From Candidatus Liptonbacteria bacterium (GTDB taxonomy: Bacteria > Patescibacteriota > Minisyncoccia > UBA6257 > 2-01-FULL-56-20): a stretch of 37,153 nt of DNA. Below are positions 3,267-21,379 of this stretch, piece after piece. Position 1 is the stretch's first letter. Every line of letters starts with the position of its first letter. The notes beneath the pieces are model-generated. The model was not told the DNA's origin. It saw only the letters and a list, made by a program, of their open reading frames with translations, and ran no database searches. The DNA lies in NCBI GenBank assembly GCA_016182105.1, contig JACOXZ010000004.1, forward strand, positions 1 through 37,153, read 5' to 3'. Made by a program: the position numbers and the translations under genes.

Positions 3267-3926
3267 TTACGCTTGCGATGTAAAACCCTTAATTTGGTAG
3301 TGACTGGAAAGACCGGCGGTCCCGACTTTTTCAATCAAACCCTGCTCGATAAGGGTTTGGAGGTCATAACGAACTGTTCTATCGCTTACATCCGGCAAAA
3401 ATTCCTGAATATCCTTTAATCGGCAGTTGCCGAATTGCCGGATTCTCTCGAGAATTGCCGATTGCCGGATTGCCGCTCTAATTGAAGCCTTATCATCAAT
3501 ACTTGTTTCTTCGCTGGCTTTTTTATTATCTTCTTTATGTTCTCTCTTAACTTTCTCCATATTATCCACAGGAATTGGCTTTTTGGAAAAAATAGGCTCT
3601 AAATTCAAATCCGGCAATTTTGCCGTATTCTCGAATTCGGCAATTGCCGAATTAAAATTGCCGATTTCATTAATTACTAGGTAACTGTTTGCCGGATTAA
3701 TTAGATTTACATCAGTCCCCAGCCTTAAAAGATATTCAATTGAATTTAAAACTAACCGGCATTCGGCATAATCCTTTAAAATGGCTGTGGATAAAATCTT
3801 TAGAGCTTGATCTTCTAGCTGTTTTGCCAAACTTCCGTTCTTCAGAATTCCGGATACTCTAAAAATGGCATAACTTATTTCGTAGGCCTTTTTAGTGGCA
3901 AATTGACTGAAATTGTCATCCGGCAT
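3267..3926 (-). CDS. Transcriptional regulator with a C-terminal DeoR-type winged HTH (…DVSDRTVRYDLQTLIEQGLIEKVG…). The N-terminal domain is unassigned.
   Basis: 219-aa ORF with a DeoR-like HTH motif at the C-terminus. Many CGGCAATTGCCG-type palindromes are embedded in the gene and just upstream of it. Confidence 0.55.
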   Translation of the reverse strand: MPDDNFSQFATKKAYEISYAIFRVSGILKNGSLAKQLEDQALKILSTAILKDYAECRLVLNSIEYLLRLGTDVNLINPANSYLVINEIGNFNSAIAEFENTAKLPDLNLEPIFSKKPIPVDNMEKVKREHKEDNKKASEETSIDDKASIRAAIRQSAILERIRQFGNCRLKDIQEFLPDVSDRTVRYDLQTLIEQGLIEKVGTAGLSSHYQIKGFTSQA

Positions 3927-8076: not shown

Positions 8077-9348
8077 TCAGGGATTTGGCCGTTTGCCAAG
8101 AGTTACCCTAAGAGTTATCTCTTTGCCTCCGCGATTGATCTTTAGCTCTACCTTATCTCCAACGCCGAACTTCGAGATCGCTTCAATGAGCGTCCTGTCT
8201 TTGTCGATCTTTTCGCCGCTCACTTCTAAAATTATATCTTCCGCTTGAAGACCGAAGAGAGCCGCGGGTGAGTTTGGCTCCACGGCTGGTCCCTCATCGC
8301 TTCCTCTAACCAGTGCACCGTATTCAACCGGGAGTTTCTGCTGTTTCGCTATCTCCGGAGTCACTATAAAATAGCGAACCCCCAAAAACGGCGCCTGGAT
8401 CTCGCCCGTGGCTCTAACAGACTGGATATCGCGTTTAGCGAGATTCACTGGAATAGCAAAACCGATACTCTGGGCACCGGAGGCAATGGCCGTGTTAATG
8501 CCCACGACCTGGCCCCGTAGATTTAAAAGCGGACCGCCGGAATTGCCCTGGTTAATCGCCGCGTCGGTTTGAATTACGCCCTGAAGCCGTTCACTAAAAT
8601 CGCCTCCGCCAGAAGCAACGATGTTCCTTGAGAGGCCGGAGATAACACCTACGGAAACCGTGTTTCGGAATTCCCCTAAGGCATTCCCTATCGCAATCGC
8701 AGTTTGTCCGATCTCTAGAGTGTCGGAATCGCCGAGCTCGACCACCTTAAGGCCATGGGCTTCGATTTTAATTATGGCCAAATCCTGGGCTGGATCTCTC
8801 GCTAAAACTTTGGCTGAATATTTTTTGCCGTCATTCGTAAAAACAGTGTAGGAGGCCGTTCTGTCGGCAACCACGTGCTTGTTCGTCAAAATAAGGCCGT
8901 CAGAAGAAATAATGAAGCCGCTGCCGCCGCCAACTTCTTCAAACCTGGTGCCTTTCTCGCAGGGAACAAAAAATTGAGGAAACTGATCGCCGAAAAGATC
9001 CCTGAATTCCGGCGGCAAGTCTAGGAAAGGACTCGAAGGGCAATTTTCAATAATGGAAACATTCTTGGAGATAGTAATCGAAACCACTGCCGGCGAGGTT
9101 TTTTTAACCGCCTCAACCACTGCTCTTTCATAATCAATGGCTGGTTTATAAAGAGGAGTTGGGCTTTCTTTTGGCGGCTCGGTGGTCGGCGCTCCTGGTT
9201 TCTCGCCGGTTAAGGGCAAGATAAAGTTTTTGAAAAAGTCCTCAAAGATATTGGCCTTGGCCGTTTCTCTCGTAATCCCAAAACCGATGATTGCTCCTAA
9301 AAGTAGTATTCCCGAAAAGGCCAATAAAAATTTATAGCTTTTTTTCAT
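8077..9348 (-). CDS. htrA: HtrA/DegP-family periplasmic serine protease with a C-terminal PDZ domain. The likely true start is MKKSYKFLL. The ORF-track start at 9378 adds MRRSRSASNG, which is encoded by a terminal repeat of the element at 9346-9467.
   Basis: Trypsin-like catalytic motifs are present, including GNSGGPLLN. A PDZ-like C-terminus and an N-terminal TM anchor are visible. The gene lies 14 nt upstream of clpB on the same strand. Confidence 0.85.
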   Translation of the reverse strand: MKKSYKFLLAFSGILLLGAIIGFGITRETAKANIFEDFFKNFILPLTGEKPGAPTTEPPKESPTPLYKPAIDYERAVVEAVKKTSPAVVSITISKNVSIIENCPSSPFLDLPPEFRDLFGDQFPQFFVPCEKGTRFEEVGGGSGFIISSDGLILTNKHVVADRTASYTVFTNDGKKYSAKVLARDPAQDLAIIKIEAHGLKVVELGDSDTLEIGQTAIAIGNALGEFRNTVSVGVISGLSRNIVASGGGDFSERLQGVIQTDAAINQGNSGGPLLNLRGQVVGINTAIASGAQSIGFAIPVNLAKRDIQSVRATGEIQAPFLGVRYFIVTPEIAKQQKLPVEYGALVRGSDEGPAVEPNSPAALFGLQAEDIILEVSGEKIDKDRTLIEAISKFGVGDKVELKINRGGKEITLRVTLGKRPNP

Positions 9349-9467
9349 CCCGTTAGAAGCAGATCGCGATCTGCGCAAGTCTGCAGGTTTACCTTATTGT
9401 AACGACTATGCATTTGGTTGATATTCAATTTATTTGCAACGCGATCGCGGCTTCTAACGGGACTCAT
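9346..9467 (-). repeat. Copy 1 of the TIR-bounded intergenic element. Left arm CATCCCGTTAGAAGCAGATCGCGATCTGCG; right arm CGCGATCGCGGCTTCTAACGGGACTCAT. It spans exactly from the iscS stop (ATGA overlap) to the htrA ATG.
   Basis: Inverted repeat with a CCCGTTAGAAGC core, and each arm carries its own GATCGCGATC / GCGATCGC palindrome. The AT-rich centre is about 65 nt. Homologous copies are at 26963-27088 and 31175-31298, and a fourth pair flanks tRNA-Pro. Confidence 0.6.
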
Positions 9468-10768
9468 TTCAAAATTATTTTAATAATCCCAAGTCCATTG
9501 TCAATCTCGCTTTTAGTGGTTGGCCGGCCGAAACTTATCCGAAGACTTTTTTTAATCCGGTCTCCCGTAAAACCCAAAGCTTTAAGCACGTATGATGGCT
9601 CGGCGCTTCTTGACCGACAGGCTGAACCCGTTGAAACCGCTAAACCCCTTAAATCAAATTTAATAGTGAGATCTTCGGCCTCATAATCGGGAAAGTAGAT
9701 ATTCAAAATATTCGGCAGCCGCTCGCCTTTTTCCTTAGGACCGTTAAGTTCGACTCCTGGGTAAATTTTTTTTAGGCCCTCGAGAAAATACTCCGAAAGT
9801 TCCCGGAGGCGTTTAGCTTCTCTCTCTTTATTTTTTTGAATAAGTTCTACTGCCTTCGCAAAACCAACTACTAAGAGAACGTTCTCCGTGCCGGAACGCA
9901 AAGAGAACTCCTGGCCGCCGCCAGTGATAATAGGTTTTAGGTGATAAGTTTTAGGTGATAAGTTCCGAATGTATAGGGCGCCGACGCCTTTGGGACCGTA
10001 AATTTTATGAGCCGAGATGGTCATCAAATCAACCCCGAGCTTTTTGACATTACAATCTAAAAACTGGAATGCTTGGCTGGCATCGGTATGAAATAATGGA
10101 TAAAGCCAGCCAAATTTTCCTTCCCGGCTACCGCTCGGCCGCCCAGCGAGCGGCCTCGCTGGCGATGCTCCCTGCGCTCCTCCCCGCTCTGCGGGGAGAC
10201 CATGCCCGCTCGGTCGCATAGCCGCGCCAGCAAGGGAAATTTGGCTGGCCTTGAAGTCAGAGATAATTTTCGAAATCTCGGCTATTGGCTCTATAGTCCC
10301 AATCTCGTTATTAGCATACATTATCGAAACCAAGATAGTTCGCTCGTCCAAAAATGACTCGAGTTTTTTTAAATCAACCAGCCCTCCTTCTTGAACCGAA
10401 AGGTAGACTACCTCTACTCCTTCGGTCTTCAGATCCTCCACGGTTTCAAGAATTGATTCGTGTTCAATAGAGGAAACAATAATCTTGGGAATAACTGACG
10501 GATAATTTGCTTTAAAAACTTTAATCGCGCCCCGCAAAGCCAAATTATTAGCTTCGGTAGCAGAACCAGTAAAAATAATCTCGCGAAAATCAACGCCCAG
10601 AGCCGCGGCTATCGTCTCTCTTCCGCGATCTAGAGCGGCGATTGCTTCCTGACCGAAAGAATGAAGCGAACCCGGATTCCCGAAGGCCAGGGAGAAATAG
10701 GGCCTCATCGCCAATTCAACCTCCGGATGAACGGGGGTTGAAGAAGCGTAGTCTAAATATATTCTCAT
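9464..10768 (-). CDS. iscS: Cysteine desulfurase (IscS/NifS family, PLP-dependent). It carries an in-frame insertion of about 50 aa that is GC-rich at the DNA level.
   Basis: SAHKIYGPKGVGALY PLP-lysine motif and the C-terminal GSACRSRSAEPSYVL active-site Cys loop are present. The insert SQISLAGAAMRPSGHGLPAERGGAQGASPARPLAGRPSGSREGKFGWLYP lies between conserved blocks, as seen by comparison with the E. coli IscS sequence from memory. Confidence 0.85.
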   Translation of the reverse strand: MRIYLDYASSTPVHPEVELAMRPYFSLAFGNPGSLHSFGQEAIAALDRGRETIAAALGVDFREIIFTGSATEANNLALRGAIKVFKANYPSVIPKIIVSSIEHESILETVEDLKTEGVEVVYLSVQEGGLVDLKKLESFLDERTILVSIMYANNEIGTIEPIAEISKIISDFKASQISLAGAAMRPSGHGLPAERGGAQGASPARPLAGRPSGSREGKFGWLYPLFHTDASQAFQFLDCNVKKLGVDLMTISAHKIYGPKGVGALYIRNLSPKTYHLKPIITGGGQEFSLRSGTENVLLVVGFAKAVELIQKNKEREAKRLRELSEYFLEGLKKIYPGVELNGPKEKGERLPNILNIYFPDYEAEDLTIKFDLRGLAVSTGSACRSRSAEPSYVLKALGFTGDRIKKSLRISFGRPTTKSEIDNGLGIIKIILK

Positions 10769-18270: not shown

Positions 18271-18313
18271 CTTTCTAGTTATTCCAATTATACCCCACCT
18301 TTAATTTAATAAA

Positions 18314-18448
18314 GGCTAAGAGATTTTTTAGACAGCTCTCGGAGGCAGGTGAAGCTTGGTTTCCGAAGGAATTCACCTGCCGAGAGCGCAGGCGGGCTCC
18401 GATCGCTGGAATCGGAGAACCGCCGGTGTCTAAAAAAATCTCTTAGCC
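18314..18448 (-). ncRNA. Highly structured element of about 135 nt between the pnp stop and the 17320..18270 start. The outer stem is 21 bp (GGCTAAGAGATTTTTTAGACA / TGTCTAAAAAAATCTCTTAGCC). The inner stems are GCTCTCGGAGGCAGGTGAA / TTCACCTGCCGAGAGC, CTCCGAT / ATCGGAG and a UUCG-type tetraloop.
   Basis: Nested inverted repeats seen directly. Its function (ncRNA, leader, processing site or MITE) is not determined. Confidence 0.4.
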
Positions 18449-18462
18449 TTATATATCAACAA

Positions 18463-20556: not shown

Positions 20557-20600
20557 ACATTCGTGGTATTCGCATAAATTCGTAGATTGGCATTATTTTT
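20557..20600 (-). promoter_or_regulatory. Conserved leader motif directly upstream of the pnp ATG. On the plus strand it reads ATTCGTGGTATTCGCATAAATTCGTAGATTGGCATTAT: three ATTCG direct repeats plus ATTGGCAT.
   Basis: It is about 90% identical to 28381-28427 upstream of the solute-binding protein gene. The same words also occur upstream of glyA at 36677-36770. Confidence 0.5.
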
Positions 20601-21177
20601 TAATAATAATTCGGGGAATTTCCTCAATATTCACAAACCGGTCAGCCGCTTCCTGAATCTTCGCGGAGGCGCTTCTCCTGAAAGCCGCGACTTCCACAAA
20701 TCGGCCCATACCCCATTTTAAATAATCAATAAGCGGCATAAAGTCGCCGTCGCCTGTCACAAGAACCACCACGTCTAAAAATGAAGCCATCCGAATCGCG
20801 TCAACTGCCATGCCGACATCCCAATCAGCTTTCCTAAGACCATCAGGATAAATCTGGAGCTCTTTGGACCTAAGCTCCAGGCCTGATTTTTCCAGAGCTT
20901 CGAAAAAAGAAGTTTCCCCTGCCGCGGTTTCACTACTTACCACGTAGGCTACTGCCCGGATAAGTTGCCGACTACCAACAAGGTACTTTATGAGCTCGCG
21001 ATAATTTACGCGGCCGTGGTATAAGTTCTTCGCTGAATGGTAAAGATTTTGAACGTCAACAAAAATCCCTACCCGCTGATTCTCATAACTGCTGTCTGAC
21101 CGGTTAATTAACATGCCAATTTTGTTCGAGCGAAGCGAGAAGACCCGCCTGCCGGACGGGCAGGCAAAATTGAGCAC
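20593..21177 (-). CDS. NYN-domain (LabA/DUF88-like) protein, a predicted RNA nuclease, inserted between rpsO and pnp.
   Basis: VGIFVDVQNLYHSAKNLY... and a C-terminal LVTGDGDFMPLIDYL fit the NYN/LabA-like fold. Confidence 0.55.
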   Translation of the reverse strand: MLNFACPSGRRVFSLRSNKIGMLINRSDSSYENQRVGIFVDVQNLYHSAKNLYHGRVNYRELIKYLVGSRQLIRAVAYVVSSETAAGETSFFEALEKSGLELRSKELQIYPDGLRKADWDVGMAVDAIRMASFLDVVVLVTGDGDFMPLIDYLKWGMGRFVEVAAFRRSASAKIQEAADRFVNIEEIPRIIIKK

Positions 21178-21379
21178 CCCGCCCTAATTTTGCTGTCTGA
21201 TTCAGGGCGCGGCGCGAGGGCGAATAGCCCTGCCCTATTCGGGCAAGCGCCGCATGTTGATGTCTTGTTAAAATTTTTGGTCATGTATTTTCTTATTATC
21301 TCTAGCAAAATTAGAGCGGGGTAAAGGTTTGGTGATGAAAAATTCTACGCCTACTGCTTGAATTTTTTAACCAAAGCCT
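21178..21379 (-). promoter_or_regulatory. Structured rpsO to NYN/pnp intergenic region. A 17-nt inverted repeat CCCCGC(C/T)CTAATTTTGC encloses about 105 nt of GC-rich hairpins (CAGGGC...GCCCTG, GGGCGAATAGCCC, GCCCTATTCGGGC). This is a possible processing or regulatory hairpin cluster.
   Basis: Inverted repeats seen directly. It is placed where E. coli carries the RNase III-processed pnp leader hairpin, which is established knowledge. Its function here is inferred. Confidence 0.35.

What the first reader, a model, noticed from the sequence alone, without database searches (positions are those of the whole stretch)
9346..9467. Family of roughly 120-bp elements with CCCGTTAGA terminal inverted repeats, placed exactly between one gene's stop and the next gene's ATG (copy 1, iscS to htrA)
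Three loci share one architecture on the minus strand. The upstream gene's stop overlaps or is followed by ATG-NNT-CCC-GTT-AGA-(A/G)(A/G)(C/T). About 60-90 nt of AT-rich sequence follows. The unit ends with the inverted arm …TCT-AAC-GGG-ATG, where the final ATG is the start codon of the downstream gene (htrA, a VirB2-like gene, and the small gyrA-upstream protein). In copies 1 and 3 each arm also carries its own palindrome, AGATCGCGATCT or GCGATCGC. Short direct repeats flank the unit (TCAT, TTCAT and ACCCAT). The apparent mini-ORFs inside are not conserved (41, 6 and 17 codons), so the signal is nucleotide-level. Two readings are possible. One is MITE-like mobile promoter cassettes that insert at CAT/ATG. 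The other is a long-range RNA stem that pairs the region just 5' of the start codon with a site about 100 nt upstream, for processing or translational control. I do not recognise this as a described element class.
Basis: seen in the sequence. Interest (0 to 1): 0.75.

Follow-up and report, generated by a model that had tools for sequence, protein, structure and literature searches.

The report
Start-codon-targeting mini transposon relics
The roughly 120-bp units are real: they are small non-coding copies of a selfish DNA element that, in related genomes, carries an 86-amino-acid nuclease gene, and they insert exactly at gene start codons, duplicating four bases so that both neighbouring genes stay intact.

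Summary
Exact CCCGTTAGA occurs 8 times in the window (0.35 expected), forming four inverted pairs.

The same arms at the same spacing occur in at least 120 species genomes, mostly Patescibacteria. There, 91 of 134 copies carry a 4-nt direct duplication, against 1 of 134 in a control. In 74 of 134, a long ORF starts on the base after the arm.

Relatives have clean empty sites at the orthologous junctions of copy 1 (iscS-htrA, ...GAAATGAAAAAA...) and copy 3.

In 76 of 80 loci fetched by protein similarity alone, the same arms enclose an 86-aa single-domain GIY-YIG nuclease gene about 275 bp long. Its last codons (SLTG) are the right arm, and its stop codon lies in the duplicated target. Copy 2 matches these cassette ends over 21 and 25 nt. 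Copies 1 and 3 share only the arms.

No promoter-like site lies inside the elements. A promoter-like site for htrA sits upstream, in the end of iscS.

Verdict: these are MITE-like relics of a GIY-YIG cassette. The closest described relative is the Ssn/NTS system, but the published repeat consensus is not met. How the elements move is inferred, not shown.

The parts
9348..9462 (-). Copy 1, measured arm to arm including the terminal T...A pair. It is a class-b miniature element between iscS and htrA.
   Evidence: The orthologous site is empty in L206 and occupied in L207.
9453..9462 (-). Copy 1, gene-distal (left) terminal inverted repeat TCCCGTTAGA. Pairing continues through AGC at 9452-9450.
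9348..9357 (-). Copy 1, gene-proximal (right) terminal inverted repeat TCTAACGGGA. Its last A is the A of the htrA ATG.
9463..9466 (-). Copy 1, left copy of the duplicated target (TGAG). Its TGA (9466-9464) is the iscS stop codon.
   Evidence: The empty site in L206 reads GAAATGAAAAAA.
9344..9347 (-). Copy 1, right copy of the duplicated target (TGAA). It lies inside the htrA start ATGAA.
9345..9467 (-). Copy 1 relay mini-ORF: 40 codons, MSPVR...LLLTG, then TGA. Its ATG overlaps the iscS stop and its TGA overlaps the htrA ATG.
   Evidence: Its translation and its role in coupling are inferred.
9440..9449 (-). Copy 1, left subterminal palindrome CGCGATCGCG.
9359..9374 (-). Copy 1, right subterminal palindrome or hairpin GCAGATCGCGATCTGC, next to the gene-proximal arm.
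9477..9504 (-). Promoter-like site TTGACA-16-TAAAAT inside the 3' end of iscS. It ends 9 nt upstream of the left ATG and lies outside the element.
   Evidence: The held part of the empty-site relative L206 (it begins at TGACA) shows the same hexamers at the same spacing.
26965..27083 (-). Copy 2, a class-a miniature element between a solute-binding-protein gene and a T4SS-pilin-like gene. The flanking TGAA duplicates are at 27084-27087 and 26961-26964. The subterminal hairpin GGAAACGC-AGA-GCGTTTCC is at 26997-26979.
   Evidence: Its ends match full-length GIY-YIG cassettes over 21 nt and 25 nt at 100% identity.
31177..31293 (-). Copy 3, a class-b miniature element between a Lactamase_B_3 gene and the 100-aa protein gene upstream of gyrA. 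The flanking TGGG duplicates are at 31294-31297 and 31173-31176.
   Evidence: The orthologous site is occupied in L212 and L213 and empty in L216.
33533..33640 (-). Copy 4: 13-nt arms CCCGTTAGAAAAT / ATTTTCTAACGGG with a C...G terminal pair, enclosing tRNA-Pro(UGG) at 33551-33622 with 4-nt spacers. The flanks (CTTG and TGAA) are not duplicated. This copy is atypical and unexplained.

Best explanation
**What it is.** The 9346-9467 unit and its siblings are non-autonomous, MITE-like copies of a very small selfish DNA element family.

**The full-length form.** It is not in this window; it is seen in related genomes. It is about 285 bp long. Ten-to-twelve-bp terminal inverted repeats (YCCCGTTAGAG...CTCTAACGGGR) enclose one gene for an 86-aa single-domain GIY-YIG nuclease. 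The right repeat encodes the protein's last residues (SLTG). The stop codon is supplied by the first bases of the duplicated target.

**Insertion.** Elements insert at TRRA-type 4-mers such as TGAA, TGGA, TGAG and TAAA, and duplicate them. When the 4-mer is the TGAA of a start codon, often an ATGA stop/start overlap, the left copy keeps the upstream gene's stop. The element's terminal A plus the right copy rebuilds the downstream gene's ATG. Neither gene is damaged.

**Shown here:** the arms, the duplication, the start-codon abutment, the orientation bias, empty sites for copies 1 and 3, and the nuclease cassette that shares the same ends (copy 2's ends match it beyond the arms).

**Inferred:**
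- (a) The GIY-YIG nuclease mobilises both full-length and miniature copies. It probably acts on the arms and the subterminal hairpin folded in single-stranded or cruciform DNA (about 0.4-0.5).
- (b) After insertion, transcripts still start from the old promoter just upstream of the left ATG.
- (c) Ribosomes starting at the left ATG translate a short relay ORF. It ends in the right arm, either at TAA (7 nt before the host ATG) or at TGA overlapping the host ATG, and they reinitiate on the host gene. Copy 1 has exactly this arrangement; copies 2 and 3 do not (about 0.4 as a general mechanism).
For: **Family and distribution.**
- The arm 9-mer is far above chance in the window.
Most are Patescibacteria; others are Omnitrophota, Planctomycetota, Deltaproteobacteria and more.

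**Target duplication.**
- The 4 nt outside the terminal Y/R pair are identical on both sides in 91 of 134 copies, against 1 of 134 in a shifted control.
- This holds for both subtypes: 53 of 74 with T..A ends and 35 of 54 with C..G ends.

**Position and orientation.**
- In 74 of 134 copies, an ORF of at least 60 codons begins with the base right after the arm.
- The CCT-R-YY signature sits at the gene-proximal end in 44 copies and at the gene-distal end in 4.
- A subterminal hairpin of -6 kcal/mol or better occurs at the gene-proximal end in 49 of 74, in a mid-element control in 4 of 74, and at the gene-distal end in 10 of 74. The stems differ in sequence.
- Arm positions 10-12 vary between copies but stay Watson-Crick paired in 68-72 of 74.

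**Empty sites.**
- Copy 1: L206 (HtrA 90% identical) reads ...ttttgaaATGAaaaaaaatt with no element. L207 (90%) is occupied.
- Copy 3: L216 is empty. L212 and L213 are occupied.

**The coding partner.**
- Of 80 metagenome loci fetched only by similarity to the GIY-YIG protein, 76 have the gene bracketed by CCCGTTAGA...TCTAACGGG, 273-284 bp apart. Many carry 4-nt duplications.
- L125 and L121 show the cassette between two co-directional host genes. The left ATG reads through the arm (MNPVRE...), and the stop TGA overlaps the host ATG.
- The protein matches Pfam GIY-YIG at 5.7e-14. At least 1745 homologues are 70-85% identical. The AlphaFold model has pLDDT 91.6, and its best structural matches are UPF0213 and Slx1.
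- Copy 2 matches cassette ends over 21 and 25 nt.
- No other coding cargo lies between arms in 1.15 Mb of loci.

**Relay ORF and promoters.**
- The left-ATG frame is open across the interior in 20 of 60 copies, against 7 and 4 of 60 for the other two frames. It ends at TAA 7 nt before the host ATG in 13 copies and at TGA overlapping it in 7. When the spacing would fuse it in frame to the host gene, it is never open (0 of 11).
- TAnnnT hexamers pile up 6-11 nt upstream of the left ATG: 32 occurrences across 60 copies, against about 9 expected from background.
- A promoter-like site lies upstream of copy 1 and in its empty-site relative.
Against: - No GIY-YIG cassette lies in this 37-kb contig, so a source of nuclease for these particular copies is not shown.
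- Copies 1 and 3 (class b, with CGCGATCGCG palindromes) share only about 15 nt of arm with the cassettes. Their descent from a GIY-YIG cassette is therefore not shown.
- GIY-YIG enzymes hydrolyse DNA and are not known to join strands. No known transposase is of this type, so an insertion chemistry that gives a 4-nt duplication is unexplained.
- Many C..G-type full-length cassettes lack a clean duplication. Instead they have flanks that extend the inverted repeat, such as TTTAC...GTGAA.
- The relay ORF is broken early in two thirds of copies, including copies 2 and 3.
- Copy 4 (the tRNA inside the arms) does not fit a simple insertion.
- Window copy 1 and its L207 orthologue have identical ends but unalignable interiors. 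The two duplicated 4-mers of copy 3 co-vary between relatives. Both need extra assumptions: repeated insertion at the same site, or conversion.
Confidence: 0.78

Rival explanations
1. The miniature copies are MITEs of a conventional DDE transposon (for example IS1380- or piggyBac-like, with CC... ends and 4-5-bp duplications). The GIY-YIG gene is only a passenger between the same ends.
For: - Arms plus a 4-nt duplication are the classic footprint of DDE transposition.
- From my own knowledge, untested here: IS1380 and piggyBac ends begin CC/CCC and give 4-5-bp duplications.
- GIY-YIG enzymes are not known to join DNA strands.
Against: - In 1.15 Mb of loci enriched for the element, no transposase-sized ORF is bracketed by the arms. 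The four far-apart arm pairs fall inside host genes.
- 76 of 80 GIY-YIG genes found by protein similarity alone sit exactly between the arms.
- The protein's invariant C-terminus is encoded by the arm itself. That argues for co-evolution rather than a passenger.
Confidence: 0.1
2. This is a host-retained Ssn/NTS-like system. The arms and hairpins are cleavage sites for a single-strand-specific GIY-YIG nuclease that modulates incoming or replicating DNA, and the copies are kept for that purpose.
For: - Chenal et al. 2025 (PMC11893778) show that single-domain GIY-YIG Ssn nucleases cut ssDNA next to hairpin repeats. Those repeats flank the ssn gene and occur in hundreds of copies.
- Here the nuclease gene is likewise flanked by inverted repeats.
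- A subterminal hairpin is conserved in position but not in sequence.
- The ends of copy 1 are identical in two lineages while its interior is scrambled.
Against: - The published SRM consensus matches none of 82 cassettes or 134 miniature copies.
- Target duplications, clean empty sites and exact start-codon placement point to insertion events rather than sites evolved in place.
- Whether the protein belongs to the cd10448 clade could not be tested.
Confidence: 0.12
3. The unit is a cis-acting RNA element. The arms pair in the mRNA to mask the start codon, or to direct cleavage that produces a new 5' end at the AUG, for example to regenerate a leaderless mRNA.
For: - The closing stem is the minimum-free-energy fold, with z-scores of -4.2 to -6.7, and it pairs the AU of the start codon.
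- The arms co-vary at positions 10-12 and tolerate G-T pairs on the sense strand.
- -10-like hexamers lie 6-11 nt upstream of the left ATG, so the element would be transcribed as a 5' leader.
Against: - There is no Rfam match.
- The interiors are unconserved.
- The same arms enclose a protein gene, and in other phyla they occur away from start codons.
- Duplications and empty sites show that the sequence arrived by insertion.
- Pairing arms are expected of such an element at the DNA level anyway.
Confidence: 0.08
4. The unit is a mobile promoter cassette: the AT-rich core carries an outward promoter that drives the downstream gene.
For: - The core is AT-rich.
- There is a strong orientation bias relative to the downstream gene, 44 to 4.
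- A recurrent AGTCG...CAATAA-like motif appears in several interiors.
Against: - The consensus scan finds no sense-strand promoter-like site inside copies 1-3.
- The best site lies upstream of the element, and the held part of the empty-site relative carries it too.
- The interiors of orthologous copy 1 are unalignable.
- The orientation bias is explained by the nuclease ORF, which must be co-directional with the host gene.
Confidence: 0.07
5. The unit is an invertible switch (inverton): the inverted repeats are recombinase sites that flip the core.
For: Inverted repeats about 100 bp apart lie upstream of genes.
Against: - Orthologous copies in relatives are all in the same orientation.
- The flanks carry target duplications.
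- The same arms enclose a nuclease gene or a tRNA.
- None of the 10 window ORFs scanned against Pfam, and no cargo found between arms in the fetched loci, is a recombinase. The other window ORFs were not scanned.
Confidence: 0.02

Closest known systems
Ssn nucleases with NTS/SRM repeats (Chenal et al. 2025, Nat Commun, PMC11893778)
   Same: A single-domain GIY-YIG protein of about 90 aa whose gene is flanked on both sides by inverted-repeat DNA. Related repeats are scattered through the genome, mostly between genes. The authors noted that the repeat-gene-repeat layout looks like an insertion sequence.
   Different: - In Ssn, each repeat is a local 20-50-nt hairpin. Here the two arms lie 100-275 bp apart and pair with each other.
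- The published SRM consensus is not matched.
- Here there are 4-nt target duplications, clean empty sites, exact start-codon placement, and an ORF that uses the arm for its C-terminus. None of these is reported for Ssn.
- Membership of the protein clade is untested.
Bacterial MITEs such as Neisseria Correia elements (own knowledge)
   Same: 100-150-bp non-coding units with terminal inverted repeats and a short target duplication. They are many-copy and intergenic, lie next to gene starts, and are able to fold as long hairpins in transcripts.
   Different: The arm sequence and the duplication differ (TA for Correia; TRRA here). The parent here carries a GIY-YIG nuclease, not a DDE transposase. 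Insertion is at the start codon itself.
REPIN-RAYT systems and IS200/IS605-derived palindromic elements (own knowledge; also discussed in PMC11893778)
   Same: Units of about 100 bp made of two inverted repeats that fold as a hairpin. They are thought to be mobilised in trans by a small, often single-copy nuclease or transposase that acts on single-stranded hairpin DNA.
   Different: Those use HUH/Y1 transposases and leave no target duplication. Here a duplication is present and the partner is a GIY-YIG protein.
UPF0213 (BH0048, YhbQ-like) and Slx1 structure-specific GIY-YIG nucleases
   Same: Best sequence and fold matches of the cassette protein: 1zg2 at E=3.4e-7 by sequence, and Foldseek hits to 1zg2 and to Slx1 (7cq2, 4xlg). 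Slx1 cuts branched and stem-loop DNA.
   Different: Those are host repair or uncharacterised genes. They are not known to sit between inverted repeats or to be mobile.
Rickettsia palindromic elements (own knowledge)
   Same: Short palindromic mobile elements that are tolerated in compact genomes because they insert without destroying genes.
   Different: RPEs insert in frame inside ORFs and are translated as part of the protein. Here in-frame fusion with the host gene is avoided: 0 of 11 in-frame cases are open.

Membership tests
MITE (non-autonomous terminal-inverted-repeat element) | Terminal inverted repeats | tested here: met
   Arms of 10-14 nt are perfectly complementary in all four window copies. 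Positions 1-9 are invariant, and positions 10-12 are paired in 68-72 of 74 copies.
MITE (non-autonomous terminal-inverted-repeat element) | Short direct duplication of the target | tested here: met
   The flanking 4-mers are identical in 91 of 134 copies against 1 of 134 in a control. In the window, copies 2 and 3 are perfect, copy 1 matches at 3 of 4 positions, and copy 4 is not duplicated.
MITE (non-autonomous terminal-inverted-repeat element) | Small size with no transposase-sized ORF | tested here: met
   The units are 98-128 bp. The mini-ORFs are unconserved beyond the arm.
MITE (non-autonomous terminal-inverted-repeat element) | Presence/absence at orthologous sites | tested here: met
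   Copy 1: L206 is empty, L207 is occupied. Copy 3: L216 is empty, L212 and L213 are occupied.
MITE (non-autonomous terminal-inverted-repeat element) | A longer coding partner with the same ends | tested here: met
   76 of 80 GIY-YIG loci are bracketed by the same arms. Copy 2's ends match over 21 and 25 nt. For class-b copies 1 and 3, only the arms match.
MITE (non-autonomous terminal-inverted-repeat element) | The partner's protein catalyses the movement | not testable with these tools
   This needs biochemistry or a transposition assay.
Ssn / NTS-SRM system (PMC11893778) | Single-domain GIY-YIG protein of about 90 aa | tested here: met
   Pfam PF01541 at 5.7e-14 over 86 aa, with a GIY-YIG fold. 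This was seen in related loci, not in the window.
Ssn / NTS-SRM system (PMC11893778) | Gene flanked on both sides by the repeat | tested here: met
Ssn / NTS-SRM system (PMC11893778) | Repeats fit the published SRM consensus HGTCWYN(0-2)YYVSBRHN(0-5)WNVSBRGN(0-2)RNCYNB | tested here: not met
   There are no matches in 82 cassettes, 134 miniature copies or the window.
Ssn / NTS-SRM system (PMC11893778) | Protein belongs to the CDD cd10448 clade | not testable with these tools
   Neither CDD nor an SsnA reference sequence was available. The best solved relatives are UPF0213 proteins.
Ssn / NTS-SRM system (PMC11893778) | Site-specific cleavage of single-stranded DNA only | not testable with these tools
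   This needs an enzyme assay.
REPIN-RAYT / IS200-IS605 derivatives | No target duplication, and an HUH/Y1 transposase partner | tested here: not met
   A duplication is present. The only cargo between the arms is a GIY-YIG gene.
DDE-transposon MITE (IS1380/piggyBac-like lead) | A DDE transposase gene between the same arms | tested here: not met
   None was found in 1.15 Mb of fetched loci. Whole genomes were not searched.
Described structured RNA family (Rfam) | Match to a curated covariance model | tested here: not met
   Only tRNAs reach threshold in the window. Nothing matches around copy 4 even at E up to 1.
Inverton (invertible promoter) | Both orientations found at one locus | tested here: not met
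   Orthologous copies of copies 1 and 3 are all in one orientation. The sample is small and no read data were available.

The most novel reading that the evidence does not exclude
The 86-aa GIY-YIG protein is itself the mobilising enzyme of an insertion-sequence-like element of about 285 bp. That would be the smallest autonomous transposable unit known and a transposase class outside the DDE, HUH, serine and tyrosine types. The element is built to land on start codons. There it borrows the host gene's start signal for its own ORF (MNPVR... read through the left arm). It ends on a stop taken from the duplicated target, which overlaps the rebuilt host ATG, and so hands ribosomes on to the host gene.
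Probability: 0.33. Interest if true: 0.85.

Novelty: new variant of a known kind. Interest (0 to 1): 0.68.

Why it matters
- **Where a parasite can live in a packed genome.** Patescibacteria genomes have almost no spare DNA. Duplicating the four bases shared by one gene's stop and the next gene's start is a way to insert without breaking either gene. That would explain a repeat family seen across many candidate phyla.
- **A test case for the small GIY-YIG nucleases.** Single-domain GIY-YIG proteins are numerous, and most are unstudied. Here there is a defined sequence (arm plus hairpin) to test them on. It also makes it possible to ask directly whether they move DNA, a question the Ssn study left open.
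- **Consequences for annotation.** The elements create false mini-ORFs and shift apparent start codons.
- **Consequences for gene expression.** Many host genes would acquire a structured 5' leader of about 120 nt. This matters for understanding leaderless or short-leader translation in these bacteria.

Tried and rejected
- **Literature search for the arm sequence.** It returned only unrelated primer hits. Four further searches found nothing that describes this element. Only the Ssn paper is related.
- **tRNA cargo as a rule.** Only window copy 4 of 134 elements contains a tRNA.
- **Conserved mini-protein.** Only MxPVR, which is encoded by the arm, is shared.
- **Internal promoter.** Not found.
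- **SRM consensus.** No matches.
- **Larger elements with the same arms.** The four far-apart arm pairs are chance matches inside host genes, an RND-type transporter and DnaE among them.
- **Phage carriage.** There are no miniature-pattern hits in 2.9 million viral contigs. The single full-length-pattern hit lacks the gene and looks like chance.
- **Exact-protein look-ups.** The window's HtrA and IscS found nothing. Relatives were reached through homologue searches instead.
- **Supplementary files of the Ssn paper.** None are held.
- **AlphaFold-database fold search.** The library was unavailable.
- **Class-b full-length partner.** None was found among the fetched loci.
Full report
**1. The observation**

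- Copy 1: ATGAGT-CCCGTTAGAAGC...GCTTCTAACGGG-ATG.
- Copy 2: ATGAAT-CCCGTTAGAGAT...ATCTCTAACGGG-ATG.
- Copy 3: ATGGGT-CCCGTTAGAAAC...GTTTCTAACGGG-ATGGGT.

In copies 1 and 2 the upstream gene's TGA overlaps the left ATG. In all three, the base after the right arm is the A of the downstream ORF's ATG.
- an Aminotran_5 (IscS-like) gene followed by an HtrA-like protease;
- a solute-binding protein followed by a weak T4SS-pilin match;
- a Lactamase_B_3 protein followed by a 100-aa protein, then GyrA.

Exact CCCGTTAGA occurs 8 times against 0.35 expected. The occurrences form four pairs, not three. The extra pair (33534-33639) encloses tRNA-Pro(UGG) with 4-nt spacers. All four units fold with the arms as the closing stem, z = -4.2 to -6.7. 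The window is a complete 37,153-bp contig of a Candidatus Liptonbacteria MAG.

**2. The family outside the window**

I scanned one genome per species with CCCGTTAGARR-N76-106-YYTCTAACGGG. Most are Patescibacteria (Saccharibacteria, Paceibacterota, Kaiser-, Nomura-, Uhrbacteria and others). Some are Omnitrophota, Planctomycetota, Deltaproteobacteria, Edwardsbacteria and Stahlbacteria.

Across the 134 units in these loci and the window:
- **Terminal pair.** The base outside the 9-mer is T on the left and A on the right in 74 units, and C/G in 54.
- **Duplication.** The next four bases are the same on both sides in 91 of 134, against 1 of 134 in a shifted control. That is 53 of 74 for T..A ends and 35 of 54 for C..G ends. 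The duplicated 4-mers are TGAA/TTCA, TAAA/TTTA, TGGA/TCCA and TGAG/CTCA, roughly TRRA.
- **Start-codon abutment.** In 74 of 134, an ORF of at least 60 codons begins with the first base after the arm. With a threshold of 70 codons the figure is 67 of 118.
- **Arm pairing.** Arm positions 10-12 differ between copies but stay Watson-Crick paired in 68-72 of 74. Position 12 was not imposed by the search.
- **Polarity.** A CCT-R-YY signature and a stable hairpin sit at the gene-proximal end. The signature is gene-proximal in 44 and gene-distal in 4. The hairpin reaches -6 kcal/mol or better in 49 of 74 at the proximal end, 10 of 74 at the distal end and 4 of 74 mid-element. The hairpin stems differ in sequence.

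**3. They are insertions**

Synteny iscS-htrA-clpB holds in relatives.
- L206 (HtrA 90% identical) reads ...ttattaaaataattttgaaATGAaaaaaaatt. The iscS stop overlaps the htrA start and there is no element.
- L207, equally related, is occupied.
- L208 (69%) has an ordinary 46-nt spacer with a TTGACA-16-TATAAT promoter-like site.

For copy 3, L212 and L213 are occupied and L216 is empty, reading ...tttaagagATGAGCaat. These are clean empty sites that hold a single copy of the duplicated bases.

**4. What the elements derive from**

Unpaired arms in some loci turned out to bracket a unit of about 275 bp that encodes a small protein. It is a GIY-YIG domain protein:
- Pfam PF01541 at 5.7e-14.
- At least 1745 homologues, mostly exactly 86 aa and 70-85% identical, from several phyla.
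- The consensus ends ...NRLKRFLSLTG.
- The AlphaFold model has pLDDT 91.6.
- The best structural matches are UPF0213 BH0048, Slx1 and the I-TevI catalytic domain.

As an unbiased test, I fetched 80 metagenome loci by protein similarity alone. In 76 of them the gene sits between CCCGTTAGA and TCTAACGGG, 273-284 bp apart. The right arm encodes the last residues (tCT CTA ACG GGn = S L T G). The stop codon is the first three bases of the flank. The first four flank bases are ATGA in 25, GTAA in 17, GTGA in 14 and ATAA in 4 of the 82 arm-bracketed units scored.

In T..A-type cassettes at start codons, the left (duplicated) ATG often reads straight through the left arm into the nuclease (MNPVRENK-MWYTY...). 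This holds for 14 of the 24 cassettes that have a left ATG. L125 and L121 show the whole arrangement between two co-directional host genes.

Window copy 2 matches cassette ends over 21 nt on the left and 25 nt on the right at 100% identity. Its TTACGG-hairpin-CCTATC end looks like a deletion between two KRF-coding GAAGCGCTTC palindromes of the gene. That is my inference from the sequences. Copies 1 and 3 share only the arms with the cassettes.

No other coding cargo lies between arms in 1.15 Mb of fetched DNA.

**5. Consequences for the host genes**

The promoter reading fails. No sense-strand sigma-70-like site lies inside copies 1-3. An 11/12 site (TTGACA-16-TAAAAT) lies inside the end of iscS, 9 nt before the left ATG. 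The L206 contig begins at TGACA and shows the same hexamers at the same spacing before its empty site.

Across the family, TAnnnT hexamers pile up 6-11 nt upstream of the left ATG: 32 occurrences across 60 copies, against about 9 expected from background (examples). The targeted genes therefore look leaderless or short-leadered. The element would then be transcribed as a new 5' leader.

The frame set by the left ATG is open right across the interior in 20 of 60 copies, against 7 and 4 of 60 for the other two frames. It then ends in the right arm, at TAA 7 nt before the host ATG (13 copies) or at TGA overlapping it (7 copies). When the spacing would fuse it in frame to the host gene, it is never open (0 of 11).

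I read this as a relay ORF that hands ribosomes to the host start by termination and reinitiation. Copy 1 is a textbook case: 40 codons with ATGA overlaps at both ends. Copies 2 and 3 stop early, so the relay is not universal. It is inferred, not shown.

**6. Mechanism of movement**

Movement itself is inferred from the empty sites, the duplications and the wide distribution. The agent is not shown. I favour the GIY-YIG protein acting on the arms and subterminal hairpin folded in single-stranded or cruciform DNA, for four reasons:
- it is the only gene ever found between the arms;
- its C-terminus and the arm are one and the same sequence;
- arm positions co-vary to keep pairing;
- its nearest characterised relatives are structure-specific (Slx1) or, in the related Ssn family, single-strand- and hairpin-specific (PMC11893778).

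Against this, GIY-YIG enzymes are hydrolases with no known strand-joining activity. A 4-nt duplication therefore needs host repair or ligation.

**7. Comparison with what is known**

The nearest description is Ssn/NTS: small GIY-YIG nucleases whose genes are flanked by hairpin repeats that are also dispersed through the genome. The authors remarked that the layout looks like an insertion sequence. This family differs in four ways:
- it does not fit the published repeat consensus;
- its arms pair with each other rather than forming local hairpins;
- it has target duplications and empty sites;
- it sits on start codons.

It works like a MITE family and passes every MITE criterion I could test. 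It is not a REPIN/RAYT or IS200/IS605 derivative, because a duplication is present and the partner is different. No DDE partner was found. I found no paper that describes it, but the library is incomplete.

**8. Loose ends**

- Copy 4 (a tRNA inside the arms, with unduplicated flanks) is unexplained.
- Window copy 1 and its L207 orthologue have identical ends (24 and 27 nt) but unalignable interiors, while the flanks are about 90% identical.
- Copy 3 and its orthologues are 94-98% identical throughout, which is more than the flanking coding DNA. The two duplicated 4-mers also change together: TGGG/TGGG in two lineages and TGAG/TGAG in a third.
- Both patterns suggest either repeated insertion at the same start codon or conversion between copies.

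**Verdict.** The finding is real and non-random, and it is a mobile-element relic rather than a promoter or a host-evolved RNA switch. It belongs to a widespread family, seemingly not described in the papers I could search, that is tied to a tiny GIY-YIG nuclease cassette.

Noticed in passing
window 33533-33640 (minus strand); flank 33636-33706: A fourth arm pair encloses a complete tRNA-Pro(UGG) with only 4-nt spacers. Its flanks (CTTG and TGAA) are not duplicated. The left flank overlaps a degenerate tRNA-like sequence (20 bits, E = 0.28). It is the only one of 134 elements with a tRNA inside.
   Followed up: partly
window 21176-21322 (minus strand): A different inverted-repeat unit has 19-nt arms, ACCCCGCTCTAATTTTGCT...AGCAAAATTAGGGCGGGGT, 109 nt apart. 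Its right arm runs into the GTG start listed for ORF 20593-21177. This is the same 'arm abuts start codon' geometry with different arms, so it may be a second family.
   Followed up: no
window 18312-18450 (minus strand): A 139-nt unit has perfect 18-nt inverted arms (AAGGCTAAGAGATTTTTT) around a GC-rich, highly self-complementary core. It lies between the PNPase gene and the next gene, just upstream of a TATAAT box. No Rfam family reaches its gathering score there.
   Followed up: no
window about 33490-33522 (minus strand), within the 33274-33550 stretch between tRNA-Pro and tRNA-Phe: A palindromic GC-rich repeat (TTTTCCGCCAGAGGCGGATCCGCCCTCGGCGG) recurs at 87-97% identity, in both orientations, in unrelated loci L132, L190, L196 and L103. 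It is another dispersed repeat family in these bacteria. The 277-nt tRNA-to-tRNA stretch has no ORF of at least 60 aa that lies wholly within it and no Rfam match.
   Followed up: partly
L130 1240-1475: A tRNA-like gene appears to be interrupted after its anticodon region by an insert. In that insert, a second tRNA is bracketed by CCCCGTAC...GTACGGGG arms. A full-length GIY-YIG cassette sits immediately after the 3' end of the outer tRNA-like sequence.
   Followed up: no
L014 5794-5821, L126 2568-2600, L109 2379-2415 and others: Short 'solo hairpin' forms exist, made of CCCGTTAGA, up to about 20 nt, then TCTAACGGG. Some are nested inside longer copies. They could be minimal elements or footprints.
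   Followed up: no
window 31173-31297 compared with L212 and L213: The two 4-nt duplicated copies that flank copy 3 change together between relatives: TGGG/TGGG in two lineages and TGAG/TGAG in a third. The empty site reads TGAG.
   Followed up: partly
L004 4330-4760 and L026 2100-2560: More distant small GIY-YIG genes (about 28% identical) are flanked by direct repeats of partial tRNA sequence rather than by CCCGTTAGA arms. This hints at other small GIY-YIG cassettes with other target sites.
   Followed up: no
window 3390-3800: A cluster of overlapping inverted repeats is built on AATTCGGCAATTGCCGAATT, inside or next to ORF 3267-3926, in the lowest-GC part of the window (0.39).
   Followed up: no
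window 10102-10252: An imperfect inverted repeat (27-nt arms, 85% complementary, 97 nt apart) lies inside the iscS-like coding sequence.
   Followed up: no
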